24,000 bases of DNA from Bacillota bacterium (GTDB lineage: Bacteria; Bacillota; Clostridia; Acetivibrionales; DSM-1351), in contig JAEZUC010000079.1 in NCBI GenBank assembly GCA_023443515.1, positions 23,664 through 47,663 of the forward strand, read 5' to 3'. Every line of letters begins with the position of its first letter. Within the stretch, counting starts at the first letter, position 1. A program made the position numbers and the translations under genes. Of this stretch, positions 1,725 through 18,425 are shown one piece after another. Under the pieces are notes generated by a model. The model was given only the letters and a program-made list of their open reading frames with translations. It was not told the origin of the DNA and did no database searches.

Positions 1725-1875
1725 TTGTTCTGAAAATTATTATATAAAATAGTAAATTATTCTATAAAACATTGGTATAGTGATATATAATAAAATAAAC
1801 AATCACAATACACATTTTCGTTGCAATAACTAACGGACTATAAAGGGGCAGCTTAAAATATTAATGGAGGTGTTT

Positions 1876-4164: not shown

Positions 4165-4256
4165 TTTAATGGTTATGTGACATAACAAAAAATATTCAGT
4201 ATATCAGTAAATTATGGTACAATTATACATAATATCTTTTTTTTGCAGGTGATTGG

Positions 4257-4961
4257 ATGATACGGATTTCCCTTTGCGATGATGAAAACCAAATTACTGG
4301 AACATTAGCCGCCAACCTAAAAGGCATAAGGCCTGATATAGAAGTACTTTCCTATGATAGCGGAGAGAACTTGCTCGAAAGTAAATATCTGTATAACGAT
4401 ATAGTATTACTGGACATTGAGATGAACGGAATAAACGGTATTGAAACGGCCATTGAGCTTCGCAAAGGCGGCTATGAAGGAATGATTATATTTCTAACAT
4501 CTCACAAGGAAATGGTTTTTGATTCTTTTCGGGTCAAGCCGTACAACTATATTGTTAAGCCCATTGATATAAATAAAGTTAACAATATACTCAACAATGC
4601 CATAAATGAAATTATAGACAGGAAAACTACCCATTTCGAAGCCGTGTGCAACAATCGTACTTTCAGAATACAGCTAGAAGACATTTATTACTTTGAGTGT
4701 AACGGTAGAAAAGTTGATATTTATTCAAAAAACGGGACAATTACTATTTTGGGAAAAATGAATCAAATAGAAGCCTCTCTCAGAAATAAGCAGTTTTTCA
4801 GGTGCCATAAGGGTTATCTTGTAAATCTAGAGCACGTTTGCGAATTTTCAAATAATGAGATTATTTTGACCAATAACCAGAAGGTTTTAATCAGCAGACT
4901 AAAAATTAATTTATTCAAGGAGGCTTTTAAGGCGTTTATGAAAGGAAATATAAAATGCTAG
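4257..4961 (+). CDS. LytTR-family (AgrA/ComE/PlnC-like) response regulator
   Basis: N-terminal receiver (ISLCDDE...VLLDIEMNGINGIE...IIFLTSH) and a C-terminal LytTR-type DNA-binding region (IYYFE...RCHKGYLVNL). The stop overlaps the start of the downstream kinase. Confidence 0.88.
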   Translation: MIRISLCDDENQITGTLAANLKGIRPDIEVLSYDSGENLLESKYLYNDIVLLDIEMNGINGIETAIELRKGGYEGMIIFLTSHKEMVFDSFRVKPYNYIVKPIDINKVNNILNNAINEIIDRKTTHFEAVCNNRTFRIQLEDIYYFECNGRKVDIYSKNGTITILGKMNQIEASLRNKQFFRCHKGYLVNLEHVCEFSNNEIILTNNQKVLISRLKINLFKEAFKAFMKGNIKC

Positions 4962-6283
4962 TGATTTTGGCAAACAGCCTAATTGATTTAATTTCAAGTA
5001 TATTTGAAATACTGATTTTTGTTTTTATGATTTCAATATTTTTAGACTTTACCGAAAGAGCCAATAAAAACGTAATACTATATTTTGTTATATACGGATT
5101 GCTTAAAGTTGTCAAAATTATTTTTCCTATTGTATTTTTAGTTGACTTTATCACTTCTGTATTTGTACTGATTTTTGTTTTTATTGCTTTCAAAGGGAAC
5201 ATTGCACACAAATTATTTGCATTTTCTACAGCGGTTTGTCTTAACTATGTTGTTGATATTTTTATTATCTCCTTTACAAACATGGGATTTAATTATAATT
5301 TGTTTTTCAGCACATTATCCGGAGGAGTAAGGGGTATATGGGTTACCATAATCAAAATTATACTGGTTATTCTTGTATACATACTACTGAAGAACTTTGC
5401 CACTACCACAACATTAAAAATAAATATACTTTCATCTGTTCAGACCTTAATTCTCATCATGCTTCCTGCCTTCAGCTTTGCTACAATCACAATTCTTGAC
5501 TGGGGAGTAAGGAATTTTGTAGATGTACCTGTAAATACTTCAGCATTCCTGCTTATAGCATCCTTATGCACAATAATATATAACGTAATAGTAATGATTT
5601 TAATTGATAAGATGATTCTTAATAAAAAATATAAACATCTCAATGAAATGTCAGAAGCTCAGCTTAGAACACAGTTCAATCATTACGAACAGATAATGAG
5701 TAAAAACCAGGAAACCAGGAAGCTAAAACATGATATGAAAAATCATCTTAGATTAATTAGAACCTTGATAGAAAATAATGACATAGATGAAGCAAAGGAG
5801 CTCCTTGACGAGATTGAGGATACTATGCGCGGACTTGACCTTGAAATAAGCAGCGGTAATAGTATCACAGATGCAATATTAAACGAAAAGAACAAGATGG
5901 CACATAATCTGGGAATAAAATTTGAGTTTTCCGGGATATTGCCAAGGGAGAACTTTATAAATCCCTTTGATATCAGTACAATTTTTTCAAATGCTTTGGA
6001 TAATGCTATAGAAGCAGCTGTGAAGTCCGATGACTCTGAGAGGTTTATCAGGGTTTTCACATACATTCAGGGCAAATGCCTGTTTATTTTAATTGAAAAT
6101 TCAGTTGAAAAGGATATTAAAATTACAGGAAAAGAGATTGAGTCTACAAAACAAAACAAGGAACATCACGGCTTTGGCCTCAAAAATATTAATGACAGCG
6201 TGGAAAAGTACGGAGGCGGACTGAGTATTATTTGTGAAAATAAAGTATTCAAACTGGAAATATTACTTAATATAAAAATATAA
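4955..6283 (+). CDS. AgrC-like (HPK10-type) polytopic sensor histidine kinase with GHKL ATPase domain
   Basis: About 6-7 hydrophobic helices in the first ~220 aa. H-box KLKHDMKNHL, N-box FSNALDNAIEA, G-box HGFGLKNI. A 7-nt overlap with the RR gene suggests translational coupling. Confidence 0.85.
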   Translation: MLVILANSLIDLISSIFEILIFVFMISIFLDFTERANKNVILYFVIYGLLKVVKIIFPIVFLVDFITSVFVLIFVFIAFKGNIAHKLFAFSTAVCLNYVVDIFIISFTNMGFNYNLFFSTLSGGVRGIWVTIIKIILVILVYILLKNFATTTTLKINILSSVQTLILIMLPAFSFATITILDWGVRNFVDVPVNTSAFLLIASLCTIIYNVIVMILIDKMILNKKYKHLNEMSEAQLRTQFNHYEQIMSKNQETRKLKHDMKNHLRLIRTLIENNDIDEAKELLDEIEDTMRGLDLEISSGNSITDAILNEKNKMAHNLGIKFEFSGILPRENFINPFDISTIFSNALDNAIEAAVKSDDSERFIRVFTYIQGKCLFILIENSVEKDIKITGKEIESTKQNKEHHGFGLKNINDSVEKYGGGLSIICENKVFKLEILLNIKI

Positions 6284-6289
6284 AACATG

Positions 6290-6351
6290 CATTTTGTGAC
6301 ATTATAGAGACATGTTATGTAAAAAATATTGAATATAACTGTAAATATAAT
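6290..6351 (+). promoter_or_regulatory. Putative LytTR-dependent promoter of the pheromone gene: two 9-bp direct repeats 21 bp apart, plus a -10 box
   Basis: CATTTTGTG (6290-6298) and CATGTTATG (6311-6319) match at 7/9 with a 21-bp period. TATAAT is at 6346-6351, and the -35 (AAAATA at 6323-6328) is poor, as expected for an activator-dependent promoter. Confidence 0.4.
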
Positions 6352-6399
6352 AAACTGTATTTGGTTGAAGTTATGACATTGCCAAATACAGTTTTTTTT
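6352..6399 (+). terminator. Rho-independent terminator/attenuator between the kinase gene and the peptide gene
   Basis: Perfect 13-bp inverted repeat AAACTGTATTTGG (6352-6364) / CCAAATACAGTTT (6382-6394) with a 17-nt loop, followed by a T-run through 6399. It abuts the AGGAGG of the next gene. Confidence 0.6.
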
Positions 6400-6412
6400 A
6401 AGGAGGATTTTT

Positions 6413-6568
6413 ATGAGTAAGAAAAACGTTTGTATGGATATTAAGGCAGATCAATTTGTAGATTTAAATAATGAAGAGGCTATGCAGATAGATGGTGGGA
6501 TTGATTCGCCAAGGCAATGCGTTAATACTATTATTATAGGTATAATTAAGATTATAAATTATTTTTAA
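6413..6568 (+). CDS. Double-glycine-leader peptide precursor (51 aa); candidate secreted peptide pheromone or small class II bacteriocin
   Basis: Not in the ORF track (too short). AGGAGG at 6401-6406 lies 6 nt before ATG 6413. Translation: MSKKNVCMDIKADQFVDLNNEEAMQIDGG|IDSPRQCVNTIIIGIIKIINYF. The leader fits the GG-leader pattern (L-x-x-E-E-x-x-x-I-x-GG). The predicted mature peptide of 22 aa starts at nt 6500. Confidence 0.75.
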   Translation: MSKKNVCMDIKADQFVDLNNEEAMQIDGGIDSPRQCVNTIIIGIIKIINYF

Positions 6569-6596
6569 AGGCTATCAATTTTTGTAAGAATAGAAG

Positions 6597-6872
6597 GTGG
6601 AATTAATTGTAAGTTTGTCTTTTTTAAATAGCGAACCGGATTGTATGGATAAAGCCCGTACTTCGTTTATTTTGGGTATAGTTGATACCGTGGCTTGGCT
6701 ATTGCCTATTATAGGGATTCCGGTTTCAATTGTAGGACTGATATTAGGGATACTTGGTATAAAATCAACTAAAAGATGGATGGCAGTTGTAGGTATTATG
6801 CTTTCTAGTATTTTTCTTGTTGCGGCAATAATCAACGTAATAATAGGAGCATTAAACCAACTTGGTAAATAA
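6597..6872 (+). CDS. Small two-TM membrane protein (DUF4190-like pattern); candidate immunity/accessory protein
   Basis: Two hydrophobic helices (FILGIVDTVAWLLPIIGIPVSIVGLILGILGI and WMAVVGIMLSSIFLVAAIINVIIGAL). The start is ambiguous: GTG 6597 sits too close to GAAGG, and TTG 6615 or ATG 6645 are alternatives. Confidence 0.6.
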   Translation: MELIVSLSFLNSEPDCMDKARTSFILGIVDTVAWLLPIIGIPVSIVGLILGILGIKSTKRWMAVVGIMLSSIFLVAAIINVIIGALNQLGK

Positions 6873-6902: not shown

Positions 6903-7301
6903 ATGGCACTATCAGCAGTAGAAAAGGACTATCGATTGAGAAATGTCCTTACTTTAAGAAAAAAAATGACAAGCCGAGAAGTCATATTGGAGATTTTGAA
7001 GTTAAAAAAATTTCTTAAAGACAACGGGCTAAAAAAGAATGGATTCATAACAACGGTAACATTTTCAATAGAGATGCAAGACGGAGTACCTTTAATAGAT
7101 ATGGAAATACTTGTTCCGTTACCAAAAAGAGTAACCATAACGAATGAATATATTTTTAAACCTATTTTTCATGTGGTTAATGCGGTATGTATTTCAAAAG
7201 AAAGTGATAAGGAAACAAGCAGAATACATAATTTATTGTGTTGGAATATCTACGACAAAATAATGGGAAGCAAACAGCAAAAGGATTTTCTTCTAGCTTG
7301 A
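6903..7301 (+). CDS. Truncated/degenerate paralog of the GyrI-like (SbmC-fold-like) protein at 10714-11184
   Basis: AGGAG at 6891-6895. It aligns with the 156-aa paralog through ...EYIFKPIFHVVNAV, then diverges. It has an internal deletion and stops right after a shared KDFL motif, so the final beta-strands (MVIDVYIGV) are missing. It may be a decaying duplicate. Confidence 0.6.
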   Translation: MALSAVEKDYRLRNVLTLRKKMTSREVILEILKLKKFLKDNGLKKNGFITTVTFSIEMQDGVPLIDMEILVPLPKRVTITNEYIFKPIFHVVNAVCISKESDKETSRIHNLLCWNIYDKIMGSKQQKDFLLA

Positions 7302-7440: not shown

Positions 7441-7493
7441 TATCTCTGTAAAGAACAAAGAAGTAGAAGATAGAGAATCAATATAACAGTATA

Positions 7494-7521
7494 TTTACAA
7501 ATTATGATATAAATGTATAAT
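7494..7521 (+). promoter_or_regulatory. Putative sigmaA promoter of the hydrolase-HK-RR operon
   Basis: TTTACA (7494-7499), 16 bp spacer, TATAAT (7516-7521). It lies ~37 bp upstream of the TTG start at 7558. Confidence 0.5.
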
Positions 7522-7557
7522 ATATTTAGATTTTAATATTTTTAAGGTGATGCTATA

Positions 7558-8532
7558 TTGAATAAATTTATATCCGAACAAATAGACAGATTATCTCTCC
7601 GACAACTACATAAAAGAAAAAGTTTCGTTTCACATTTTATAGCACCAAACATGCAACCCGTAAAATCAGGCGAGTTTTCTTCATATTTTGATACTCCGTC
7701 CATCCCGAAAATAAAATTACAGGAGGAAAAGAATTCATATTATACTACAGGAACATTTTCATATGACAGTCAGATAAGAAATAACAACAAAAGTAATGAA
7801 AAAGTTTTTGGATACTATCACAGAAATTCAAACGATGAGGATTCAACCAATGTAATTCTTGTTCATGGATGGAGAATGGATGATTACAAGAACATTGACA
7901 GTATTTATTTAAAAAGCTTTTTGGATTCAGGATATAATGTTTATCACTTTATAATGCCGTATCATTTTCAGAGGAACTCAAATGAATCCACATATAATGG
8001 GGAACTGTTTGTTACCTCTAACATTGATAGGACACTATTATCAGTAAAACAGGCTGTATCTGATTTAAGGGCATTGGTTAAATGGCTTAAATCAAACACA
8101 CAAGGTAAAGTTATACTAATAGGAGTAAGTCTTGGAGGCTTTTTGACAAATCTGACAAGTGCTGTAGAGAGGGATATTGATATACTGATATCCGTATTTT
8201 ATGCAAATAGTCTGGCAAACGCTGTCTGGAATACAATACCCGGAAAGTACATAAAGAACGATTTTATTAAAAGTTCATTTTCATATGAACAATTATTGAA
8301 CTATTGGGTCGTTATCACCCCCAGCTTATACCAGCCCGCTATTCCTAAAAACAATATATTACTGTTAAGTGCTGCTTATGACCAATACATAAGCTTGGAA
8401 GATTCCAACGAATTATGGTCAAAATGGGGAAAACCTCAAAGGCATATTTACAATTGCGGACACTCAGGCATTGTACTTTTGAGAAATATAATAAGAAAGG
8501 ATTCTTTAGAGTTTATTAATAGCAAACTATAG
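7558..8532 (+). CDS. Alpha/beta-fold serine hydrolase (unknown substrate)
   Basis: Oxyanion region ILVHGW; nucleophile elbow GVSLGG; candidate acid in LLLSAAYDQY; candidate His in NCGHSG. TTG start with AAGGTGA at 7544-7550. Confidence 0.75.
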   Translation: MNKFISEQIDRLSLRQLHKRKSFVSHFIAPNMQPVKSGEFSSYFDTPSIPKIKLQEEKNSYYTTGTFSYDSQIRNNNKSNEKVFGYYHRNSNDEDSTNVILVHGWRMDDYKNIDSIYLKSFLDSGYNVYHFIMPYHFQRNSNESTYNGELFVTSNIDRTLLSVKQAVSDLRALVKWLKSNTQGKVILIGVSLGGFLTNLTSAVERDIDILISVFYANSLANAVWNTIPGKYIKNDFIKSSFSYEQLLNYWVVITPSLYQPAIPKNNILLLSAAYDQYISLEDSNELWSKWGKPQRHIYNCGHSGIVLLRNIIRKDSLEFINSKL

Positions 8533-8547
8533 GTTGGTGGATTATAT

Positions 8548-9945
8548 ATGTTGGTTTTATTTATTGCATTATGGGTAATAGCAGGTATACTCATAAGAAC
8601 TGATCCCCATAATCGGGCCACAAGGTGGGGGAGTGCCCTTGCTTTTTTTTCAGGTTTTGGAGGTCTGGGAATTTTTCTAAGAGAATATTCTTTCACGCTC
8701 TCGGACACTAATACTAAATTTATAATTTATTCGGCAACATCGTTCATGTTCACATTGTCTACCCAAATAGCTCCGTATATTGTTTTAATATATAGTATTA
8801 TATATACAGGAACATTAAATAATTTTAAATTTATTTCTAAATATTGCCACGTCATATTTTTTATTCCGGTAATAATAATGTATTTGATTTACCCGTCTAT
8901 ACCGGATTATAGACCATCATTTTTAATTCTTAGCCTATGGGTTGTACCCTATGTACTTTTTGCAAACTACCTGTTGATTTATTCATATAAAGCTGAGAAA
9001 AATGCACGTAAAAAGCAGCAAAGATTGCTTACTTGCATATTAATTACGCCTACAACCCTGTTTGCTATTACGGCTAATTATATTTTAAGAGCATTCCGGA
9101 TTGAGAGTATATGGAGATATAATGCGATTACAATATCGGTCGCTTTCATAATATTCGTATATGCAAGCTTCAGGTATGGAGTTATGGGGGTTAGAGTTAA
9201 ATTTGAAAAATACCGTTTGGACAGTACTATTAAGGCTATAACCTCAGGAACATCAATTATGAATCATAGTATAAAGAATGAGATTATAAAAATAGGAATG
9301 TGTACAAATACGATTAAATCCAAACTTAAAAATCAAAATATCAATATCCCGGATATTGACGAAAATATTGGATTTATTCTTGATTCTAGTGATTACCTTA
9401 CAAAGATGGTTAAGCATATTCAGAAGCATATTCAAGAGATTACCTTGAATGAGCAGGTTAATAATGTTAAGGATATATTTACAAACTCTATAAACATGGT
9501 AATTCCATTTATAAAAAATAAAGAAATCATACTGGAAAACAATTTTCACAATGACATTTTTATAAAATGTGATAGCCTTCATATTCAGGAAGTGTTTCAT
9601 AATGTATTAAAAAATGCCATAGAAGCGGTGGAAGAGGCAGGTAAACTCAAGATAGATGCTGTTTCAAATAAATCAACATTTATTATTGCTATAAGTGACA
9701 CTGGATGCGGAATATCAAAAGAAAATCTTCCTTATGTATTTGATCCGTTTTTTTCCACTAAACGAACCAGTAATAATTTTGGACTGGGGCTATCATATTG
9801 TGTTAACGTTATGAACTTACATGGTGGTAAATTGGAAGTAATCAGCGAAAAAAATGTGGGAACAACGATACAAATTATTTTTCATAAAAGTAGAGTATCC
9901 GGTTTGCTTGATAAGCAAATCAAAAGGAGTTTGGTCAATGGATAA
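8548..9945 (+). CDS. Polytopic (about 6-7 TM) sensor histidine kinase, HisKA/HATPase_c type, with no obvious extracytoplasmic domain
   Basis: Hydrophobic N-terminal ~210 aa. H-box IMNHSIKNEI, N-box NVLKNAIEAV, DTGCGI, FDPFFSTK, GLGLSYC. It starts 15 nt after the hydrolase stop. Confidence 0.85.
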   Translation: MLVLFIALWVIAGILIRTDPHNRATRWGSALAFFSGFGGLGIFLREYSFTLSDTNTKFIIYSATSFMFTLSTQIAPYIVLIYSIIYTGTLNNFKFISKYCHVIFFIPVIIMYLIYPSIPDYRPSFLILSLWVVPYVLFANYLLIYSYKAEKNARKKQQRLLTCILITPTTLFAITANYILRAFRIESIWRYNAITISVAFIIFVYASFRYGVMGVRVKFEKYRLDSTIKAITSGTSIMNHSIKNEIIKIGMCTNTIKSKLKNQNINIPDIDENIGFILDSSDYLTKMVKHIQKHIQEITLNEQVNNVKDIFTNSINMVIPFIKNKEIILENNFHNDIFIKCDSLHIQEVFHNVLKNAIEAVEEAGKLKIDAVSNKSTFIIAISDTGCGISKENLPYVFDPFFSTKRTSNNFGLGLSYCVNVMNLHGGKLEVISEKNVGTTIQIIFHKSRVSGLLDKQIKRSLVNG

Positions 9946-10573
9946 AATACAGGTAATGATAGTTGAGGATGATCCTGCATGGATTAAAATATTAAATTCT
10001 TTTCTTTCGCAGGAGGAGGATATATTTGTTAAGGCTTCAGCAAACAGTAAAGACGAAGCTGTACGGCTGGCGATAGATATCAAAATAGATGTAATAATTA
10101 TGGACATTAATTTGTCTGAAAACCTTAAGGATGGGGTTGTTGCAGCACTTGAAATAAAGGAATTTTCCGATTCCAAAATAATCATGTTAACATCGTATAA
10201 TGACGATGAACTAATCAAAGATTCCTTTGAAGTTGGAGCTGTAGATTATCTTCTAAAAGAGGATTATTTGGATTTGCCAAACACAATAAGAAAAACATAC
10301 AACAATCGCTCGTCAATACAGGTAATTCTTAATGACTATGCAAGACTTAAAAAAGATGAAAGGTTAAGGGAATTGACAACAGCAGAAAAGGAAGTATTTG
10401 AACTTATAGAACAAGGACTTTCCCAATCACAAATTGCTACAAAATTATCAAAGACAAACAACACGTTGCGTACACAGGTCAAGAATATACTAAAAAAACT
10501 TGGAGCTAAAAATAGTAAGGAAGCTGTAAAAAAAATTAAATACAAGGATATTTTCCACAAATATAAACTATAA
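9938..10573 (+). CDS. NarL/LuxR-family response regulator (REC + LuxR-type HTH)
   Basis: The start MDKIQVMIVEDDP is preceded by AAAAGGAG and overlaps the kinase stop by 8 nt. Phosphoacceptor context VIIMDINL. C-terminal HTH LTTAEKEVFELIEQGLSQSQIATKLSKTNNTLRTQVKNILKKLG. The 9854 start in the ORF track is an over-extension. Confidence 0.88.
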   Translation: MDKIQVMIVEDDPAWIKILNSFLSQEEDIFVKASANSKDEAVRLAIDIKIDVIIMDINLSENLKDGVVAALEIKEFSDSKIIMLTSYNDDELIKDSFEVGAVDYLLKEDYLDLPNTIRKTYNNRSSIQVILNDYARLKKDERLRELTTAEKEVFELIEQGLSQSQIATKLSKTNNTLRTQVKNILKKLGAKNSKEAVKKIKYKDIFHKYKL

Positions 10574-10576
10574 AAA

Positions 10577-10597
10577 GGGGTTATAAAATATAACCCC
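10577..10597. terminator. Hairpin after the RR gene (weak or bidirectional terminator)
   Basis: GGGGTTATA (10577-10585) pairs with TATAACCCC (10589-10597) around a 3-nt loop. There is an A-run upstream but no T-run downstream on the + strand. Confidence 0.35.
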
Positions 10598-10713
10598 TAA
10601 CTCTCAGAATAGTGGTATGAAAAATAACTGTAGTAGGAAAAAAGATATTAATATATAATACACGTAGACATTAATTTACAAATAATAATCAATTAGGGGA
10701 AAATGTAAAATAC

Positions 10714-11184
10714 ATGATACAATCAGGAAAAGAATTTAAACTAGAAAACGTTTTATCTCTAAGAAAAAAAATGACCCAGGAAGAAATAAAAAATGAAATG
10801 GGTAAAATAGGTAAGTTTTTACAGGATAATGGAATAAAAAAAGCCGGACCGATTGTTACCGTAACTTTTGATATTGAAGAAAATTGTGGGCAAGCTCTTA
10901 TGGATATGGAACTCCTTGTTCCAATAGATAAGAAGTTTGATTTTTCAGCAGAATATATATTTAAGCCATTTTTTTACATATTTGATGCTGTATATGCAAG
11001 GCATGAAGGTAATCCTGCAACATTACAAAATACATATAATGAGATACTTGCATATATACAACAGAATAAATTACAACAGATAACGGCAGGTTATAATGTT
11101 CAGGTTAAAGATTTTTTGCCAGGAATGACAGATGATGAGATGGTAATTGATGTTTACATAGGTGTAAGTCGCAATGTACTGTAA
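10714..11184 (+). CDS. Stand-alone GyrI-like / SbmC-like small-molecule-binding-fold protein (156 aa); candidate immunity or peptide-binding factor
   Basis: The length and secondary-structure-like pattern track E. coli SbmC (157 aa) segment by segment. Examples: beta1 EFKLENVLSLRK, helix EMGKIGKFLQDNGIKKAGPIVTVTFD, MDMELLVPI, second repeat FDAVYARHEGNPATLQNTYNEILAYIQQN and MVIDVYIGV. This fold assignment was made by eye, not by HMM. Confidence 0.55.
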   Translation: MIQSGKEFKLENVLSLRKKMTQEEIKNEMGKIGKFLQDNGIKKAGPIVTVTFDIEENCGQALMDMELLVPIDKKFDFSAEYIFKPFFYIFDAVYARHEGNPATLQNTYNEILAYIQQNKLQQITAGYNVQVKDFLPGMTDDEMVIDVYIGVSRNVL

Positions 11185-11318
11185 TTACCTGCTGTAAGCC
11201 ATGGGACAGTAGTTAATATAAACTATGAATGTAAAAACTTTATTATTGAAGTTTATGCGCAGAATGGAGAGAAGAGGATACATTTGTAGAAAAATTAGAT
11301 AAAAGTGAGGTAGAAATT

Positions 11319-11555
11319 ATGACATATGCTATGAGTTTAAACAATGTTGGTTTTGCTGAGTTGACACAGGATGAAATGATGTGTGTTGATGGAGGAAACC
11401 TTTTTGGTGATGTTTGCAAAGTTGTTACTTGTGCTACTGTAAGTGCGGTAATTGGCGCTGTAGTTTCTCCATATGCTACACCAGCAGGAGGATATATAGC
11501 AGGAGTAGTATCATATGAGATAATATCCCAGGCGTGGGATAAAGCTTTCAAATAG
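11319..11555 (+). CDS. Class II (GG-leader) bacteriocin precursor, peptide 1 of a putative two-peptide pair
   Basis: GAGG RBS upstream of ATG 11319. The leader MTYAMSLNNVGFAELTQDEMMCVDGG (GG codons at 11391-11396) is followed by a 52-aa hydrophobic core, NLFGDVCKVVTCATVSAVIGAVVSPYATPAGGYIAGVVSYEIISQAWDKAFK. The core has two Cys and small-xxx-small motifs. Confidence 0.8.
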   Translation: MTYAMSLNNVGFAELTQDEMMCVDGGNLFGDVCKVVTCATVSAVIGAVVSPYATPAGGYIAGVVSYEIISQAWDKAFK

Positions 11556-11572
11556 GATAGGAGGTGCAAGTT

Positions 11573-11791
11573 ATGGGAGACTTCATTGAATTAAATTATG
11601 AAGAAATTCAAGCTATAGAAGCTGGCGGATTATTGTCTGCGGTTTGTGGAGCAGCAGCAGGTGCCATTGTTGGATTGTATGTTGGTGGTACCGCAGCAGC
11701 AATAAGTGGTGATTCAAAAAATATTGTCCAGTCTGTAATTGCGGGTGCATCAACAGGATTATGGGTGGGGTTGGGCTGCCCTATTCCGTAG
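11573..11791 (+). CDS. Class II (GG-leader) bacteriocin precursor, peptide 2 of a putative two-peptide pair
   Basis: GGAGG at 11559-11563 favours ATG 11573 over GTG 11564. The leader MGDFIELNYEEIQAIEAGG (GG codons at 11624-11629) is followed by a 53-aa Gly/Ala-rich core with GxxxG motifs (GAAAG, GAIVG, GLYVG, GLWVG) and Cys near both ends (positions 6 and 50). Confidence 0.8.
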   Translation: MGDFIELNYEEIQAIEAGGLLSAVCGAAAGAIVGLYVGGTAAAISGDSKNIVQSVIAGASTGLWVGLGCPIP

Positions 11792-11804
11792 ATAAATAAT
11801 TTAA

Positions 11805-11855
11805 GAACCAGATATGCGGATTAAAATTATTCTGCATATTTGGTTCTGGATTTTT
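11805..11855 (+). terminator. Rho-independent terminator after the bacteriocin genes
   Basis: GAACCAGATATGCGGA (11805-11820) pairs with TCTGCATATTTGGTTC (11831-11846), with two G-U positions, followed by TGGATTTTT. Confidence 0.7.
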
Positions 11856-11947
11856 ACTGGTACTGTATTAATTACAGGCACTGAACGCATTAGCAAGAAT
11901 TAATATATATAATAAATATAAATAAAATGTCTAGGGAGAATTTTATT

Positions 11948-12163
11948 ATGAGTATTAAGAATAAGTTATTTGTAAAAAAGATATTTAAAAAATTCATACC
12001 AATGTGTATTGCTATATTAGGATTATATCTTTTAGATATATATTATTTTAGACGGGATGAATTCAGGATCAGTTATGTAATAATTATAGTAATAACTTGT
12101 TTTGCTGTTGTGACCATATCAAGTATTGTAAATACAAAAAAAGATAATAATGGAGTTAGCTAA
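11948..12163 (+). CDS. Small two-TM membrane protein; candidate bacteriocin immunity/accessory protein
   Basis: AGGGAGA at 11933-11939 favours ATG 11948 (MSIKNKLF...). Two hydrophobic helices (FIPMCIAILGLYLLDIYYF and ISYVIIIVITCFAVVTISSIV). TAATG overlap with the ABC transporter start. Confidence 0.6.
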   Translation: MSIKNKLFVKKIFKKFIPMCIAILGLYLLDIYYFRRDEFRISYVIIIVITCFAVVTISSIVNTKKDNNGVS

Positions 12164-14361
12164 TGCAAACCCTATTCAAACATTTCTACTGTGTCAAACA
12201 ACATGACATAACAGATTGCGGAGCAGCTTGTCTGGCTACTATCAGCAAGCAGTACGGTTTTAAAACTTCAATAACAAAAATAAGAGAGATTGCAGGAACA
12301 GACAAACAAGGTACAAATGCATATGGAGTGATAAAGGCAGCTGAGAGTCTTGGTTTCACAGCCAAGGGAGTAAAGGGAAATCAGGAGGCCTTTTTTTCTG
12401 AGTTTCCTTTGCCATGCATAGCACATGTTGTCGTCGAAGGTACATTGCTTCACTATGTGGTTATACATAAGATAACAAAAAAGCAGGTTATCGTTGCTGA
12501 CCCCGGAAAGGGTATAGTCAAGTATGTTCCGGAGGAATTCTTTAAAATCTGGACTGGTGTACTTATATTGATGGTTCCTAATGTTACTTTTAGCAAGGGT
12601 AATAATACAAAGGGCCTTTTTTCCCGTTTCTCTAATTTGCTGATGCCTCAGAAGAAGCTACTTGTAAATATATTTTTTACATCTCTCATATACACTATTT
12701 TAGGTATTTTGGGATCTTTTTATTTTAAATTCCTTTTGGATGACATTTTGCAGTACAATCTGGAAAAGACCTTGCATGTTATATCCATAGGCATTATTCT
12801 GCTCTACCTTTTCCAGACTCTATTGGGAGCATTTCGTTCTCACATGGTTCTGTACTTGTCACAAAAAATTGATATACCTCTTATACTGGGGTACTATCAG
12901 CATGTTCTGGGACTTCCAATGAATTTTTTCGGAACAAGAAAGGTTGGAGAAATCGTATCCCGTTTTATGGATGCCTCAAAGGTAAGAGATGCCATATCAG
13001 GTGCAACGCTTACCATAATGATAGATACCCTGATGGCTGTGGCAGGAGCTGTTATTCTATACATGCAGAATTCTACATTGTTTATAGTTGCGGTAGTAAT
13101 AGCGACTATATATGGCATTATTGTTTTTGCATTTAATAAGCCAATCAAAAAAGTAAATCAAGAACAAATGGAAGAGAATGCACAGCTTACCTCCTACCTT
13201 GTAGAATCACTGAATGGAATTGAAACAGTTAAAACCTTCAACGCCGAGGAGGAAGCATCCCTTAAAACCGAAACAAGGTTCGTAAAGCTACTTCGCTCGA
13301 TATTCAAAGGCGGTGTAATTAATAATTTTCGTTCATCAATTACATCCTTCACTGCATTGGCGGGAGGAACAGTCATATTGTGGGTGGGTGCATGGAATGT
13401 AATAAAAGGAAACATGACAGTAGGTCAATTGCTTGCATTTAATGCTCTGCTGGGATACTTTCTGGAACCTATCAAAAACCTCATCAATCTCCAACCAATG
13501 ATACAAACAGCAGTAGTAGCATCAGACAGACTAGGTGAAATATTTGACCTGGAATTGGAAAAGAGTGAAAAAGAGAACGAAAAGATTAAACCCCTTGATT
13601 TAAAAGGTGACATAACCTTTAAAAATGTAGATTTCAGGTATGGAACACGTTCCCTTGTACTAAAAAATATTAATATTACCATAAAGCAGGGCGAAAAAAT
13701 TGCATTGGTAGGGGAAAGCGGGTCGGGTAAAACCACTCTTGTTAAGCTTTTATTGAACCTGTATACCTGGGAAAAAGGCGAAATAGCAATAAAAGACTAT
13801 AACATAAAGGATATATCCTTTGAGTCCCTGAGAGAAAAACTTGCATACATATCCCAGGATATATTCATGTTCAGCGGAACAATACGGGAAAATCTAACCC
13901 TTGGTGACAAAAATATTAGTATGGAAGAAATTATCGAGGCTTGTAAAATGGCACAGGCACATGAATTTATAAACAAGCTTCCATTGCGGTATGAGACTTA
14001 TTTGGAGGAAAACGGTGCAAATTTGTCTGGAGGACAAAAACAAAGGCTTGCTATAGCCAGAGCAATTTTGAAAAAACCCGACATATTTATAATGGACGAG
14101 GCAACCAGTAATCTTGATTCAATTTCAGAGAAGGCCATAGAGAAAACACTGGAAACTGTTTGCAGCGGAGTAACAACGATTATAATAGCACACAGACTAA
14201 GCACTATAAAACGATGTGACAGGATTTTTGTAATGGAAGACGGCAGTATTATGGAACACGGTAGCCATCAGGAGCTTATGGCACTTGGAGGAAAGTATTT
14301 TGAGTTATGGAAGGAGCAATTAACTGAAAAAGAGGAACAAACCATAGGAGGGAAGGTTTAA
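12163..14361 (+). CDS. Peptidase-C39-containing ABC transporter (PCAT; bacteriocin/pheromone maturation and export, ComA/LagD/CvaB type)
   Basis: N-terminal C39 domain with an intact catalytic Cys (QHDITDCGAACLATISKQYG; Cys codon at 12217-12219), plus HYVVIH and VADPGKG. Six-helix TMD. Walker A GESGSGKTT, signature LSGGQKQR, Walker B IFIMDEATS. Confidence 0.93.
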   Translation: MQTLFKHFYCVKQHDITDCGAACLATISKQYGFKTSITKIREIAGTDKQGTNAYGVIKAAESLGFTAKGVKGNQEAFFSEFPLPCIAHVVVEGTLLHYVVIHKITKKQVIVADPGKGIVKYVPEEFFKIWTGVLILMVPNVTFSKGNNTKGLFSRFSNLLMPQKKLLVNIFFTSLIYTILGILGSFYFKFLLDDILQYNLEKTLHVISIGIILLYLFQTLLGAFRSHMVLYLSQKIDIPLILGYYQHVLGLPMNFFGTRKVGEIVSRFMDASKVRDAISGATLTIMIDTLMAVAGAVILYMQNSTLFIVAVVIATIYGIIVFAFNKPIKKVNQEQMEENAQLTSYLVESLNGIETVKTFNAEEEASLKTETRFVKLLRSIFKGGVINNFRSSITSFTALAGGTVILWVGAWNVIKGNMTVGQLLAFNALLGYFLEPIKNLINLQPMIQTAVVASDRLGEIFDLELEKSEKENEKIKPLDLKGDITFKNVDFRYGTRSLVLKNINITIKQGEKIALVGESGSGKTTLVKLLLNLYTWEKGEIAIKDYNIKDISFESLREKLAYISQDIFMFSGTIRENLTLGDKNISMEEIIEACKMAQAHEFINKLPLRYETYLEENGANLSGGQKQRLAIARAILKKPDIFIMDEATSNLDSISEKAIEKTLETVCSGVTTIIIAHRLSTIKRCDRIFVMEDGSIMEHGSHQELMALGGKYFELWKEQLTEKEEQTIGGKV

Positions 14362-14362
14362 A

Positions 14363-16240
14363 ATGAAGGAAATTTTAGTTGACATAAATGAACTTACGGA
14401 CAGCCGTGAAATGTATCATACAAAACCTCACCCATTTGTATGGATATTTACATATATTTTACTGGGGTTGGTTATAGTAGCTGTAACATGGGCAGCATTT
14501 GGAAAAAAGGAAATAGTAGTAAAGGCCTCCGGCCAGGTACGGCCTGAATCCGGAATAAGTACTGTCAGGAATATTGTTGAAGGGGAGCTGAAAAGTACTA
14601 ATTGTAGACAGGGAATGTCAGTAATGGCGGGAGAAATTTTATACATAATCAAACATGACAATCTTCTGGTGGAAAGGGAGTCGGCGGAAGTAAAGCTTAA
14701 AGAGTTGGAAAAAGAGTTGGAAAACCTTCAAATATATAGAAAATGCATTTCGTCAGAAGAAAACAATTTTGATCCTGCAAAGGAGCCTGTATATTATGAA
14801 AAGGTTAGAAAGCTTTTGATGGATATAAAATTTTCGCAAACTGATACGGCCTATAAAACTACAAGGCTTAGTGAAGAAAAGCTTCTGAACAGTACACAAC
14901 TGAGCAAAAATCTTAAAGAGATAGAATTCTTAAAAAAGTATATAAAATCCTTGGATAACAATAGAAATTATTTAAATTCAGGAAATGAACTGGAAAAGCA
15001 GTACAAACAGAAATATGATAAGTATCTTATAGCAAAAACAGAAATACAAAGAAAATATGACCAACAAGCTAATGAAATAAAGAGTAACAGCCCTGAAGCC
15101 ATGAAACAGTCACTGGAGGAGGAAAAATCCCAGTTAAGGGCATATGAGACACTGAAAAAGAGCATCGGCGAAGCAAAAAATAATTTTCAGTCCGGGGATA
15201 GGTATTCATATCTTTATACGGAATATGAAAATAGATTTAACTTTCTGAAAAATACATACGAGGAGAAAAAACGATTATACGAGGCATACCTTTCATTGAG
15301 CGGAATAGCCATTACAAAATCCGAGCTGGAGGATGCACGAGTGCAAATGCAGAATGCGCAAGGAGAATATACATCCTATAAAAGCAAGTTTATGTCTGAA
15401 TTGGAAAATAATATAAATAATATACAAATCAGCATAAAAGAAAAAGAAAGTAAGGTTTCCGGTACACAGGACAAACAGGGGTTTCTTAATTTAAATGAAA
15501 AGGACAGAAAAAACAGCTTGAAAGCACTGTATTTGCAGGAGAGAAATGATGCAGCCCAAGCAATAGACAATTTAACGGATACGGTGGGAACGCTGAAACA
15601 AAAAAATGTCCTTTCAGATGCAGAACTAAAAACCATAACCGAAGCAGACGGTCAAAATGAAGACTCCTTGAACTACTCACTGGTAGAAAGAACAAAGGTT
15701 CAGGAAGTTGTTGTCACTGATGAAAAGATTAAAGCAGTAACAGATAGTATTACAGGAGTTAGAGAAAATATTAAAAAACTGGAACTGAGTATAAACAATG
15801 CCATTGTAAAGGCCAGTGTAAACGGAACCGTTAACATAATCGCGGAAATGTACCCCGGGGATTTGATGCCGGCAGGAGCTGAAATATTAACGATAATCCC
15901 TAACACCAATTCAGCTTTTAAAATGCAGATGACTGTCAGCAATAAAGACATAGGTGAAATAAATACAGGGGATACGGTTAAATATAGCTTTGCAGCCCTA
16001 CCTTACAGGGAATACGGACAGGTAGCAGGAAAAATAACAAGTATATCAAAGGATGCAGTCAATAACTCAAGCGGTCAAAGCTATTATGTCGTCGAAGCCA
16101 CCGTTCCCGTAACAAAACTGGTCAGCAATTCGGGGAGACAGGGAGAAATAAAGGCAGGAATGATATGTGAAGCAAATGTAATAACGAAGCAAAAGAGCTT
16201 TTTACGCTATTTTCTTGAAAAAATAAATTTGCTTGATTAA
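14363..16240 (+). CDS. HlyD-family membrane fusion/accessory protein with an unusually long coiled-coil region (625 aa)
   Basis: N-terminal anchor FVWIFTYILLGLVIVAVTWAAF. A lipoyl-like half (VKASGQVRPES...). About 350 aa of heptad-rich, K/E/Q/L-rich sequence. C-terminal beta-barrel region (VKASVNGTV...AGMICEANVITKQKSFLRYFLEKI). It starts 1 nt after the ABC transporter stop. Confidence 0.85.
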   Translation: MKEILVDINELTDSREMYHTKPHPFVWIFTYILLGLVIVAVTWAAFGKKEIVVKASGQVRPESGISTVRNIVEGELKSTNCRQGMSVMAGEILYIIKHDNLLVERESAEVKLKELEKELENLQIYRKCISSEENNFDPAKEPVYYEKVRKLLMDIKFSQTDTAYKTTRLSEEKLLNSTQLSKNLKEIEFLKKYIKSLDNNRNYLNSGNELEKQYKQKYDKYLIAKTEIQRKYDQQANEIKSNSPEAMKQSLEEEKSQLRAYETLKKSIGEAKNNFQSGDRYSYLYTEYENRFNFLKNTYEEKKRLYEAYLSLSGIAITKSELEDARVQMQNAQGEYTSYKSKFMSELENNINNIQISIKEKESKVSGTQDKQGFLNLNEKDRKNSLKALYLQERNDAAQAIDNLTDTVGTLKQKNVLSDAELKTITEADGQNEDSLNYSLVERTKVQEVVVTDEKIKAVTDSITGVRENIKKLELSINNAIVKASVNGTVNIIAEMYPGDLMPAGAEILTIIPNTNSAFKMQMTVSNKDIGEINTGDTVKYSFAALPYREYGQVAGKITSISKDAVNNSSGQSYYVVEATVPVTKLVSNSGRQGEIKAGMICEANVITKQKSFLRYFLEKINLLD

Positions 16241-18159: not shown

Positions 18160-18425
18160 TGTTAAATCTCCATTGAGGTACTTTACAAAAAAGTATAGCA
18201 TCCGATAAAAATTTATTCAACATAAGCTGAAATCTTTACTAAAGGTTTGGTCTATCACGTTTCAAAACTGTTAATTTACTAACAAAGTATTGAAATAGCA
18301 ACTAAAAAGAGGTAAAATTACTTTGGTTATTTGAATGGAAATTTGGATATTATACATATTGCAATCATTTCCTAAATTTTGACTCATCTTTAAATAAATA
18401 AAAATATATACAGGAGCGTGAAGTT

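What the first reader, a model, noticed from the sequence alone, without database searches (positions are those of the whole stretch)
6413..6568. Unlisted 51-aa double-glycine-leader peptide directly downstream of the LytTR/AgrC-like pair: candidate autoinducing pheromone
The ORF track misses this gene. It has a strong AGGAGG RBS with 6-nt spacing. Its leader, ...FVDLNNEEAMQIDGG, matches the GG-leader logic recognised by C39 peptidases. The predicted 22-aa product is IDSPRQCVNTIIIGIIKIINYF, with a polar N-terminus, a hydrophobic C-terminus and a single Cys. It sits next to the kinase/regulator pair, as induction peptides do (PlnA, BlpC, ComC, IP-673), although the gene order here is RR-HK-peptide. 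Its only plausible processing enzyme is the PCAT 5.6 kb downstream. That would link the signalling module functionally to the export module.
Basis: partly seen in the sequence, partly recalled or inferred. Interest (0 to 1): 0.75.

Follow-up and report, generated by a model that had tools for sequence, protein, structure and literature searches.

The report
Clostridial double-glycine peptide pheromone candidate
A real, conserved 51-codon gene next to a sensor kinase/regulator pair encodes a small exported peptide that most likely is the bacterium's own quorum-sensing signal; this is a familiar kind of circuit, but it is undescribed in cellulose-degrading clostridia.

Summary
The ORF at 6413-6568 is real. 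It has an AGGAGG ribosome-binding site 6 nt upstream. It is called as a 51-aa hypothetical protein in public assemblies and is under purifying selection (pN/pS 0.28; mature part 0.15).

It belongs to a very small unannotated peptide family: 11 true clusters among 1.84 billion representatives, all in Ruminiclostridium-like genomes, including R. cellulolyticum H10. Every family locus holds a LytTR regulator, a 6-7-TM HATPase_c_5 kinase, a short double-glycine (GG) peptide with an 18-26-aa mature part, and a PCAT1-like C39 ABC exporter. In most loci this peptide is the only GG peptide.

Its promoter carries two invariant direct repeats (nrCATkTTrTGnmA) in 21-bp phase. This double repeat occurs once per locus. 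The regulator-kinase operon has a conserved extended -10 promoter and ends in a hairpin terminator that overlaps the peptide promoter.

Mature-peptide similarity tracks kinase sensor-domain similarity after controlling for the kinase core (partial Mantel r=0.36, p=0.019). One locus is a sensor-plus-mature-peptide mosaic.

The pheromone reading is therefore supported in silico (about 0.6) but not proven. A regulated small bacteriocin with a downstream immunity gene remains possible. The Cys is not conserved, so a disulfide dimer is unlikely. New member of a known kind.

The parts
4205..4213 (+). Extended -10 promoter (TGGTACAAT) of the regulator-kinase operon; presumed constitutive
   Evidence: TGGTA(C/T)(A/T)AT is conserved in 9 of 10 family loci, while upstream DNA is not; no LytTR repeats.
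4257..4961 (+). Response regulator: receiver domain plus LytTR DNA-binding domain
   Evidence: Pfam LytTR 2.1e-23 and Response_reg 8.9e-13. It overlaps the kinase start by 7 nt.
4955..6283 (+). Membrane histidine kinase: 6-7 TM sensor (residues 1-217), H-box KLKHDMKNHL, HATPase_c_5 core
   Evidence: Pfam HATPase_c_5 4.7e-26. TM profile. The only PDB hit is the AgrC kinase module 6E52.
6288..6322 (+). Two direct repeats, TGCATTTTGTGACA (6288-6301) and GACATGTTATGTAA (6309-6322), in 21-bp phase; predicted LytTR regulator binding site
   Evidence: Core positions are invariant in the nine aligned loci while the spacer varies (repeats tabulated for eight loci). The exact pattern occurs once per family locus, always upstream of the peptide. 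It is the only high-scoring site in the window: 36.4, against at most 16.4 in shuffles (the matrix was built from these sites).
6329..6356 (+). Peptide promoter core: -35 TTGAAT (6329-6334), 16-nt spacer, -10 TAAACT (6351-6356)
   Evidence: Both hexamers are conserved across the nine aligned loci; the spacer is 16 or 18 nt. The transcription start site is not mapped.
6352..6399 (+). Hairpin (14-bp stem 6352-6365/6381-6394) plus U-run. Likely the intrinsic terminator of the regulator-kinase operon, overlapping the -10 and start site of the peptide promoter
   Evidence: -16.5 kcal/mol, z -2.7. It is kept in 7 of 9 aligned loci, with a compensatory GG/CC to AA/TT change in L010. C-G to T-A change in L096.
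6401..6406 (+). Ribosome-binding site AGGAGG
   Evidence: 6-nt spacer to the ATG.
6413..6499 (+). Peptide precursor, 29-aa double-glycine leader (MSKKNVCMDIKADQFVDLNNEEAMQIDGG)
   Evidence: F-15, L-12, E-8, I-4 and GG are conserved family-wide. Position -7 is A/Q/K, which is atypical.
6500..6568 (+). Predicted mature 22-mer IDSPRQCVNTIIIGIIKIINYF plus stop codon
   Evidence: Mature part pN/pS 0.15. Family mature parts are 18-26 aa, net charge 0 to +3, with an aromatic C-terminal motif.
6615..6872 (+). 85-aa 2-TM membrane protein (alternative GTG start at 6597 gives 91 aa), weakly DUF4190-like, co-transcribed with the peptide; immunity or accessory role unknown
   Evidence: Present in most family loci but not all (absent in L010, L017, L095). 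It does not co-vary with the mature peptide.
6903..7301 (+). 132-aa diverged paralogue of the DUF5085/GyrI-like protein; last gene of the peptide operon
   Evidence: 45% identical to 10714-11184 by tblastn. A terminator-like hairpin follows.
7441..12162 (+). Strain-variable cargo cassette: alpha/beta hydrolase, second kinase, LuxR-type regulator, DUF5085, two GG bacteriocin-like peptides (11319-11555, 11564-11791), 78-aa 2-TM immunity-like protein
   Evidence: Absent from L003, L005, L006 and L008, which carry the identical kinase. Boundaries from blastn. Domains.
12163..14361 (+). Peptidase-containing ABC transporter (PCAT); predicted to cleave after GG and export the peptide
   Evidence: TIGR01193 at 702 bits, above the 524 cutoff. 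919 bits to PCAT1 (4RY2). Cys19, His97 and Asp113 align with the catalytic residues.
14363..16240 (+). LcnD/HlyD-type accessory protein (625 aa, long coiled coil)
16281..17501 (+). 406-aa secreted coiled-coil protein of unknown function, conserved after LcnD
   Evidence: N-terminal signal-like segment. No Pfam, NCBIfam or PDB match. Syntenic in family loci.

Best explanation
The gene encodes the precursor of a secreted, unmodified peptide pheromone belonging to a three-component quorum-sensing circuit.

Proposed mechanism:
1. The regulator and kinase are made from a constitutive extended -10 promoter. Their transcript stops at the hairpin at 6352-6399.
2. Basal transcription from the peptide promoter yields the 51-aa precursor.
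3. The PCAT1-like transporter binds the leader, cleaves after Gly29 and exports a peptide of about 22 residues. LcnD, and possibly the 406-aa secreted protein, assist.
4. At threshold concentration the peptide binds the polytopic sensor domain of the kinase, which phosphorylates the LytTR regulator.
5. The regulator binds the two direct repeats at 6288-6322 and activates the peptide promoter. This creates positive feedback and induces the co-transcribed membrane protein and DUF5085-like protein.
6. In relatives with cargo genes downstream of such repeats, bacteriocins are induced as well.

Shown in silico: the gene is real and conserved; the leader and protease features are present; the repeats are conserved and unique per locus; the four core genes always co-occur.

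Inferred: cleavage site, export, receptor binding, autoinduction, and the position of the transcription start inside the hairpin.
For: - **Real coding gene.** RBS, 51 codons, pN/pS 0.28 overall and 0.15 in the mature part.
- **Always in the same company.** The family members whose loci were examined each sit next to a family kinase/regulator pair (50-95% identical kinases) and, wherever the contig extends far enough, a PCAT. The whole family is 11 true clusters among 1.84 billion representatives.
- **Sole GG peptide in most loci.** This holds in L003/5/6/8, L010, L012-L016, L018 and H10. The exporter has no other local substrate and the kinase no other local candidate ligand.
- **Promoter repeats.** Invariant double direct repeat in 21-bp phase, the spacing typical of LytTR regulators (established knowledge). 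It occurs once per locus. L011 has a second, weaker copy in front of its DUF5085-bacteriocin operon. The same repeat type lies next to unrelated LytTR regulator genes in metagenomes, consistent with it being a LytTR box.
- **Co-variation with the sensor.** Partial Mantel, mature vs sensor given kinase core: r=0.36, p=0.019. Mature vs kinase core given sensor: r=0.08, p=0.31. Leader vs sensor given kinase core: r=0.14, p=0.23.
- **Mosaic locus L094.** Its kinase core and leader are closest to the window clade, but its sensor and mature peptide are closest to L010.
- **Peptide properties.** Mature peptides are 18-26 aa with net charge 0 to +3, like induction peptides and unlike typical 30-70-aa cationic class II bacteriocins (comparison from general knowledge).
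- **Competent protease.** The PCAT has the intact catalytic Cys/His/Asp. Val133 sits at the position of PCAT1 Gly135, which fits a beta-branched I/V at -4 under the size rule proposed in PMC6959990.
Against: - There is no experimental datum: no transcript, peptide or response has been measured.
- The peptide is co-transcribed with a small 2-TM protein, the classic position of a bacteriocin immunity gene. It is not co-transcribed with the kinase and regulator, as classical induction peptides are.
- The only local output of the predicted regulator site is the peptide operon itself, which fits 'regulated product' as well as 'autoinducer'.
- A distant regulator-kinase pair carries the same repeat type in front of a GH3 glycosidase gene. 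Kinase/LytTR pairs of this sort are therefore not always peptide sensors.
- Leader position -7 is Ala (Gln/Lys in relatives). The L(-7)A change lowered CtA binding to PCAT1 (PMC6959990).
- The Mantel test rests on 9 taxa and short peptides.
- No LytTR repeats were found upstream of the PCAT or the regulator gene.
Confidence: 0.6

Rival explanations
1. The peptide is only a small class IId-like bacteriocin or toxin. The downstream 2-TM protein (and perhaps the DUF5085-like protein) confers immunity. The kinase senses some other cue and simply switches the operon on.
For: - The operon order is peptide then small membrane protein.
- The predicted regulator site controls just this operon.
- The mature part contains an amphipathic, hydrophobic helix-like stretch.
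- A distant kinase/LytTR pair with the same repeat type drives a non-peptide target.
Against: - At 18-26 aa and net charge 0 to +1 in most members, the peptides are short and weakly charged for a pore-forming bacteriocin.
- The membrane protein does not co-vary with the mature peptide: L094 vs L096 are 59% identical in the membrane protein but 19% in the peptide. It is also missing in L010, L017 and L095.
- This model does not explain the specific co-variation of the mature peptide with the sensor domain.
- No other candidate ligand gene is seen in the cargo-less loci.
Confidence: 0.15
2. The peptide is bifunctional, acting both as autoinducer and as antimicrobial (as reported for plantaricin A; from general knowledge), with the 2-TM protein protecting the producer. 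This is a sub-case of the best explanation with an added killing function.
For: It combines the evidence for signalling with the immunity-like gene position.
Against: The peptides carry low charge. The membrane protein is not universal and does not co-vary with the peptide.
Confidence: 0.15
3. The peptide is an exported GG peptide with another role, such as an interspecies signal, an inhibitor of a competitor's kinase, or a cell-surface factor. It is not sensed by the adjacent kinase, or it is barely expressed because the hairpin blocks read-through.
For: The terminator-like hairpin sits between the kinase gene and the RBS. The atypical -7 residue may make it a poor PCAT substrate.
Against: Purifying selection on the mature part is strong. 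A dedicated conserved promoter with regulator-type repeats is present. The peptide co-varies with the sensor domain.
Confidence: 0.1

Closest known systems
Three-component pheromone systems of class II bacteriocin and competence loci (ComCDE/ComAB, BlpCHR/BlpAB including S. gallolyticus GSP, PlnABCD, SppIP-K-R, CbnS-K-R)
   Same: - A GG-leader precursor yields a short unmodified peptide.
- The kinase is polytopic with a HATPase_c_5 core, and the regulator is of the LytTR type.
- A C39 ABC exporter works with an LcnD-type partner.
- Direct repeats in 21-bp phase lie in the pheromone promoter.
- Bacteriocin cargo is variable, as in the window, L011, L017, L095 and L096.
   Different: - No sequence similarity to any known pheromone family; there is no Pfam or NCBIfam hit.
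- The gene order is regulator, kinase, terminator, then peptide. The regulator-kinase operon has its own conserved extended -10 promoter, rather than one autoinduced peptide-kinase-regulator operon.
- The peptide is co-transcribed with a 2-TM protein and a GyrI-like DUF5085 paralogue.
- Most loci carry no bacteriocin at all.
- The leader lacks the hydrophobic -7 residue.
- The host is a cellulolytic clostridium rather than a lactic acid bacterium or streptococcus.
PCAT1/CtA of Clostridium (Acetivibrio) thermocellum (PDB 4RY2, 6V9Z; PMC6959990)
   Same: The exporter is a close full-length homologue (919 bits, E 1e-275) with an identical catalytic Cys/His/Asp arrangement. The leader logic L(-12), E(-8), G(-2), G(-1) is the same.
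   Different: CtA has a 66-residue cargo of unknown function. Here the substrate would be a 22-residue peptide paired with a kinase and regulator. Position -7 is Ala, not Leu. The residue equivalent to PCAT1 Gly135 is Val133.
Agr autoinducing-peptide systems, including R. cellulolyticum Rc-AIP1 (agrD1 Ccel_2126; PMC8251862)
   Same: The kinase and regulator are of the AgrC/AgrA type (HATPase_c_5 plus LytTR). Both occur in the same genus and both are peptide quorum-sensing systems.
   Different: There is no AgrB or AgrD here. The peptide is linear with a GG leader and is exported by a PCAT, not cyclised by AgrB. This is a separate locus.

Membership tests
Double-glycine-leader peptides processed by C39 ABC transporters | Gly-Gly (or GA/GS) at -2/-1 ending an N-terminal leader of about 15-30 residues | tested here: met
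   The leader ends ...QIDGG at residue 29. GG is invariant in all family members.
Double-glycine-leader peptides processed by C39 ABC transporters | Consensus L(-12)xxxE(-8)L(-7)xxxxGG with hydrophobic residues at -4, -7, -12 (and -15) | tested here: inconclusive
   F-15, L-12, E-8 and I-4 are present. Position -7 is Ala (Gln/Lys in relatives) instead of Leu/Met. The consensus and the L(-7)A effect are taken from PMC6959990.
Double-glycine-leader peptides processed by C39 ABC transporters | A cognate PCAT with an intact catalytic Cys/His in the same locus | tested here: met
   12163-14361 hits Peptidase_C39 at 1.6e-40 and TIGR01193 above its cutoff. Cys19, His97 and Asp113 align with the PCAT1 catalytic residues Cys21 and His99 and the Asp of VADPGKG. 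The PCAT is syntenic in the family loci whose contigs extend past the peptide operon.
Double-glycine-leader peptides processed by C39 ABC transporters | Cleavage after GG and export demonstrated | not testable with these tools
   This needs in vitro cleavage or LC-MS. The mature N-terminus can differ from the prediction, as with the GSP 21-mer versus the predicted 24-mer (PMC8545107).
Three-component peptide-pheromone systems (induction peptide + HPK10-type kinase + LytTR regulator) | Kinase with a polytopic (5-8 TM) sensor and a HATPase_c_5 / AgrC-type core | tested here: met
   6-7 TM-like segments in residues 1-217; H-box KLKHDMKNHL; PF14501 at 4.7e-26; the only PDB hit is AgrC.
Three-component peptide-pheromone systems (induction peptide + HPK10-type kinase + LytTR regulator) | Response regulator with a LytTR output domain | tested here: met
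   PF04397 at 2.1e-23.
Three-component peptide-pheromone systems (induction peptide + HPK10-type kinase + LytTR regulator) | Pheromone gene promoter carries two imperfect direct repeats about 21 bp apart upstream of -35 | tested here: met
   Repeats at 6288-6301 and 6309-6322 are invariant across loci and occur once per locus. Regulator binding itself was not tested.
Three-component peptide-pheromone systems (induction peptide + HPK10-type kinase + LytTR regulator) | Pheromone gene co-transcribed with the kinase and regulator genes in the order peptide-kinase-regulator | tested here: not met
   The order is regulator-kinase, then a hairpin terminator, then a separate promoter and the peptide. 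This is conserved in all family loci.
Three-component peptide-pheromone systems (induction peptide + HPK10-type kinase + LytTR regulator) | The peptide activates its cognate kinase (autoinduction) | not testable with these tools
   There is only indirect support from co-variation of the mature peptide with the sensor domain (partial Mantel r=0.36, p=0.019) and the L094 mosaic.
ComC (PF03047) and Bacteriocin_IIc (PF10439) sequence families | Significant match to the family profile | tested here: not met
   The peptide has no Pfam or NCBIfam hit at E<=0.01/0.1. By contrast, the cargo peptide at 11319-11555 matches Bacteriocin_IIc above its cutoff.

The most novel reading that the evidence does not exclude
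In most Ruminiclostridium genomes, including the genetically tractable model cellulolytic species R. cellulolyticum H10, the locus carries no bacteriocin. On this reading it is a stand-alone ComCDE/ComAB-like quorum-sensing circuit, a second peptide signalling system beside Agr. Its local outputs are only a 2-TM protein and a GyrI-like DUF5085 protein, and its real regulon lies elsewhere (for example sporulation, cellulosome expression or DNA uptake). Its exporter is the closest relative of the structural model PCAT1, which would supply a physiological role for that transporter type. The overlap of promoter and terminator would be a device that insulates signal production from the constitutive receptor transcript.
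Probability: 0.2. Interest if true: 0.65.

Novelty: new member of a known kind. Interest (0 to 1): 0.45.

Why it matters
Peptide pheromones with double-glycine leaders are well understood in streptococci and lactic acid bacteria. None has been characterised in cellulolytic clostridia, where only Agr cyclopeptides are known (PMC8251862).

If the reading is right, the family would give a defined linear signal, a receptor and a promoter in a genetically tractable, industrially relevant genus. It would also be a natural short substrate for a close homologue of PCAT1, the structural model of these exporters. The several peptide-sensor variants could be used to study specificity.

The value is incremental rather than conceptual, because the circuit logic is standard.

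Tried and rejected
- **Known-family searches.** Pfam, NCBIfam and Rfam found nothing for the peptide or its intergenic region.
- **Literature.** Searches for this locus in Ruminiclostridium found nothing. The Agr AIP paper concerns another locus.
- **Distant kinase homologues.** 73 loci with 25-39% identical kinases have an upstream LytTR regulator but no PCAT, no GG peptide and no comparable repeat after the kinase. The architecture is therefore specific to the Ruminiclostridium clade.
- **Metagenome-wide pattern scan for regulon members.** It did show the same repeat type beside other LytTR systems that drive a GH3 gene or a phosphatase-like gene.
- **LytTR repeats elsewhere in the window.** None were found upstream of the regulator gene, the PCAT or the cargo genes.
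- **Profile search of 1.84 billion proteins.** The top hit, P0138, is a spurious 3815-aa repeat protein.
- **Hairpin covariation.** Statistics on the 9-sequence alignment are weak: 2 compensatory pairs, and 37 of 500 shuffles reach the observed score.
- **Disulfide-linked dimer.** Rejected because the Cys is absent in most family members.
- **Alternative start at Met8.** Rejected because the RBS precedes Met1 and the MSKKN N-terminus is conserved.

Full report
**1. Observation**

AGGAGG lies at 6401-6406, six nucleotides before the ATG. The gene is missing from a >=60-aa ORF list only because of its length.

Gene callers found the same 51-aa gene on nine public contigs that carry the identical kinase. 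Homologues 82-98% identical occur in R. papyrosolvens, Clostridium sp. BNL1100 and R. cellulolyticum H10, all named 'hypothetical protein'.

Among six close relatives pN/pS is 0.28. The leader is at 0.53 and the mature part at 0.15. For comparison, the kinase is at 0.08 and the regulator at 0.12. This is a real protein-coding gene whose mature part is the more constrained half.

**2. Context**

Upstream lie a LytTR response regulator (4257-4961) and, overlapping it by 7 nt, a kinase (4955-6283). The kinase has 6-7 TM segments, an H-box KLKHDMKNHL and a HATPase_c_5 core. Its only PDB relative is the AgrC kinase module.

Downstream genes are, in order:
- an 85/91-aa 2-TM protein (6615 or 6597 to 6872);
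- a 132-aa diverged DUF5085/GyrI-like paralogue (6903-7301);
- an alpha/beta hydrolase;
- a second kinase;
- a LuxR-type regulator;
- a full-length DUF5085 protein;
- two GG-leader bacteriocin-like peptides (11319-11555, which matches Bacteriocin_IIc, and 11564-11791);
- a 78-aa 2-TM protein;
- a PCAT (12163-14361);
- a 625-aa LcnD/HlyD protein;
- a 406-aa secreted coiled-coil protein.

The PCAT passes the TIGR01193 cutoff. It is a full-length close homologue of PCAT1 of C. thermocellum (919 bits), with the catalytic Cys, His and Asp aligned.

**3. A strain-variable cassette**

Contigs with the identical kinase fall into two forms. In L003, L005, L006 and L008 the stretch 7441-12162 is absent and only 95 bp replace it. 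The PCAT then starts about 1 kb after the peptide gene, and the peptide is the only GG peptide in the locus. The 5.6-kb distance in the window is therefore secondary.

**4. The family**

Kinase homologues of at least 50% identity are confined to Ruminiclostridium-like genomes. In every such locus a short GG-leader ORF follows the kinase. The predicted mature parts are:

| Source | Mature part |
|---|---|
| window | IDSPRQCVNTIIIGIIKIINYF |
| H10 | VDSPRQCITTIIIGIIKIIDYF |
| L012 | VTGNPRTEISVIITGILKVIDFFS |
| L094 | ADAHGRESSNTFFDGIVKIINFFTGK |
| L010 | SNADVRQAWDSFYNGIVSIINYFTGK |
| L011 | TSTRKDFSIIIDAIINFFK |
| L018 | SFRSSVNNIINLFQSIFN |
| L017 (R. sufflavum) | TGVRENNASISSVFKGICSFFARLF |
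| L095 | TSVRENNSSVYKSIYSCFLRFFR |
| L096 | NSSRNLFAIFLEKLSSIFN |

They are 18-26 aa long with net charge 0 to +3. Each has a polar N-terminal part, in most cases with one Arg, and an amphipathic C-terminal part that mostly carries an aromatic pair near its end. The Cys is not conserved.

A profile search of 1.84 billion representative proteins found only 11 true members.

Four genes are always present together: regulator, kinase, peptide and PCAT. The 2-TM protein, the DUF5085 protein, LcnD and the 406-aa protein are usual but not universal; L010 lacks them.

Larger bacteriocin-like GG peptides with a different, canonical leader (MSLNN.GFAEL..DEM..VDGG) occur only in some loci: the window, L011, L017, L095 and L096. 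In most cases they follow a full-length DUF5085 gene. This pattern, a constant signalling and export core with turnover of cargo, is the one known from blp and pln loci (general knowledge).

**5. Regulatory anatomy**

Aligning the kinase-peptide spacer of nine loci gives a sharp footprint. Two direct repeats, nrCATkTTrTGnmA, lie at 6288-6301 and 6309-6322, exactly 21 bp apart. Their core positions are invariant while the 8-nt spacer varies. They are followed by -35 TTGAAT (6329-6334) and, 16 nt later, -10 TAAACT (6351-6356).

The exact pattern CATNTTNTG-N12-CATNTTNTG occurs once in each family locus, always at this place. A position matrix finds no other comparable site in the window: 36.4 against at most 16.4 in shuffles. 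This test is circular for the site itself, though not for the absence of others. L011 has a second, weaker copy in front of its DUF5085-bacteriocin operon. Two imperfect repeats in 21-bp phase just upstream of -35 are the hallmark of LytTR-regulated promoters (established knowledge of AgrA, ComE and PlnC/D).

The regulator-kinase operon differs. It has a conserved extended -10 (TGGTACAAT, 4205-4213) and no conserved repeats.

Between the kinase stop codon and the peptide RBS lies a 14-bp hairpin followed by a U-run (6352-6399; -16.5 kcal/mol, z -2.7). It is conserved, with compensatory changes in L010 (21-bp stem, z -8.9) and L096. Its 5' arm overlaps the -10 and the expected transcription start.

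My inference is as follows. The hairpin terminates the constitutive regulator-kinase transcript. The peptide mRNA starts inside the hairpin and so escapes termination. Peptide synthesis would then depend on its own regulator-controlled promoter. This has not been shown.

After the 132-aa gene there is another terminator-like hairpin. The PCAT promoter region of the short loci shows no repeats.

**6. Signal or bacteriocin?**

Arguments for a signal:
- By elimination, the peptide is the only exported peptide available to the kinase in most loci.
- The candidate regulator site controls the peptide's own promoter.
- The peptide's size and charge fit induction peptides.
- The mature part co-varies with the sensor domain.

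On the last point, across nine non-redundant loci:

| Comparison (partial Mantel) | r | p |
|---|---|---|
| Mature peptide vs sensor domain, given kinase core | 0.36 | 0.019 |
| Mature peptide vs kinase core, given sensor | 0.08 | 0.31 |
| Leader vs sensor domain, given kinase core | 0.14 | 0.23 |

Locus L094 makes this visible. Its kinase core (74%) and leader are closest to the window clade. Its sensor domain (59% vs 53%) and mature peptide (50% vs 42%) are closest to L010.

The 2-TM protein does not follow the peptide: L094 and L096 are 59% identical in that protein but 19% in the peptide. This argues against it being a specific immunity protein.

Arguments against a pure signal:
- The peptide-then-small-membrane-protein order is the classical bacteriocin-immunity arrangement.
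- The order regulator-kinase-peptide, with a separate promoter, departs from peptide-kinase-regulator operons.
- The only local output is the peptide operon itself.
- Leader position -7 is Ala/Gln/Lys, whereas L(-7)A weakened CtA binding to PCAT1 (PMC6959990).
- A distant kinase/LytTR pair in gut metagenomes has the same repeat type, after a terminator, in front of a GH3 glycosidase gene. Such pairs therefore do not always sense peptides.
- The statistics rest on few independent contrasts.

I put about 0.6 on 'cognate autoinducer'. I score the dual signal-plus-antimicrobial variant separately at about 0.15, a bacteriocin-only role at 0.15 and other roles at 0.1.

A detail in favour of PCAT processing: Val133 sits at the position of PCAT1 Gly135. 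Under the size-complementarity rule proposed in PMC6959990, this matches the I/V found at -4 in the pheromone-type and two-peptide-bacteriocin leaders examined here.

The true N-terminus may differ from the prediction, as shown for the GSP 21-mer versus the predicted 24-mer (PMC8545107).

**7. Comparison with known systems and novelty**

Functionally this looks like ComCDE/ComAB, BlpCHR/BlpAB or PlnABCD. It meets the defining features that can be tested in silico, with two exceptions: operon order (not met) and the -7 leader residue (inconclusive). It has no sequence membership in ComC or Bacteriocin_IIc.

It is distinct from the Agr cyclopeptide system already described in R. cellulolyticum (PMC8251862). 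No paper in the searched library mentions the locus.

I classify it as a new member of a known kind, with several variant features: split transcription units, overlap of promoter and terminator, stand-alone loci without cargo, accessory DUF4190-like, DUF5085 and coiled-coil proteins, and a PCAT1-type exporter. Interest is moderate (0.45). The finding is solid, useful and testable in a tractable organism, but conceptually expected.

Noticed in passing
window 7441-12162: A 4.7-kb cassette holds an alpha/beta hydrolase, a second kinase, a LuxR-type regulator, DUF5085, a two-peptide GG bacteriocin pair and an immunity-like gene. It is present in some strains with the identical LytTR-paired kinase and absent in others. 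It replaces 95 bp that include the PCAT promoter, and the immunity-like gene's stop codon overlaps the PCAT start.
   Followed up: partly
window 6903-7301 and 10714-11184: Two paralogous DUF5085/GyrI-like proteins are about 45% identical; the first has a divergent C-terminus. In relatives a full-length DUF5085 gene usually precedes the bacteriocin cargo, and in L011 it follows a second LytTR-type repeat pair. Its function is unknown; an immunity or effector-binding role is conceivable.
   Followed up: partly
window 16281-17501 and 14363-16240: A 406-aa secreted coiled-coil protein with no family or PDB match is conserved directly after an unusually long (625 aa) LcnD/HlyD protein in most family loci. 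It may be a third component of the export apparatus.
   Followed up: partly
window 1864-4164: A 766-aa SecA paralogue sits immediately upstream of the regulator gene. The same arrangement is seen in most family loci (window, H10, L010, L011, L013-L016, L018) but not in L012 or L017. It may be a SecA2-type accessory ATPase.
   Followed up: no
window 12163-14361: The PCAT is a very close full-length homologue of PCAT1 (C. thermocellum; PDB 4RY2, 6V9Z), the structural model of this transporter class. Val133 replaces the PCAT1 Gly135 that contacts leader position -4.
   Followed up: yes
L188 6190-6300 (also L139, L157, L168): A distant LytTR regulator/kinase pair from gut metagenomes is followed by a terminator, then the same type of double repeat (GCATTTTGTGCCA-N8-GCATCTTGTGCCA), then a 968-aa membrane-anchored GH3 glycosidase gene. 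This suggests a carbohydrate-related regulon for an Agr-type two-component pair.
   Followed up: partly
L095 186-2740 (- strand): Next to the family locus lies a radical SAM/SPASM enzyme gene with three tandem precursor-like peptides (MWKKP...(V/T)NLDE(L/I)S...(L/I)ETNGG...). This looks like a separate RiPP cluster.
   Followed up: no
L095 5100-7066 and L017 11313-12289: In these relatives the LytTR-type repeats stay directly after the kinase gene. In L095, homologues of the window's two-peptide bacteriocin plus an immunity-like gene lie between the repeats and the pheromone-like gene, so the cargo there appears to sit under the same promoter. In L017 about 0.8 kb with no clear gene lies between them.
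   Followed up: partly
L010 11705-11890: In place of the 2-TM protein there is a 61-aa ORF whose C-terminus (…KIGGINYFLL…) echoes the C-terminal IINYF of that locus's peptide. It could be chance or a remnant of a duplication.
   Followed up: no
window 18426-20366: A single 646-aa ORF carries both phosphoglycerate kinase and triosephosphate isomerase domains (a PGK-TIM fusion). A pentapeptide-repeat protein lies on the minus strand at 17512-18201.
   Followed up: no
window 6551-6578 (- strand): A near-consensus sigma-70-like match (TTGATA-16-TATAAT, 11/12) sits on the minus strand inside the 3' end of the peptide gene. No minus-strand gene follows it. Promoter-like matches in the region are no more frequent than in shuffles, so it is probably chance.
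   Followed up: no
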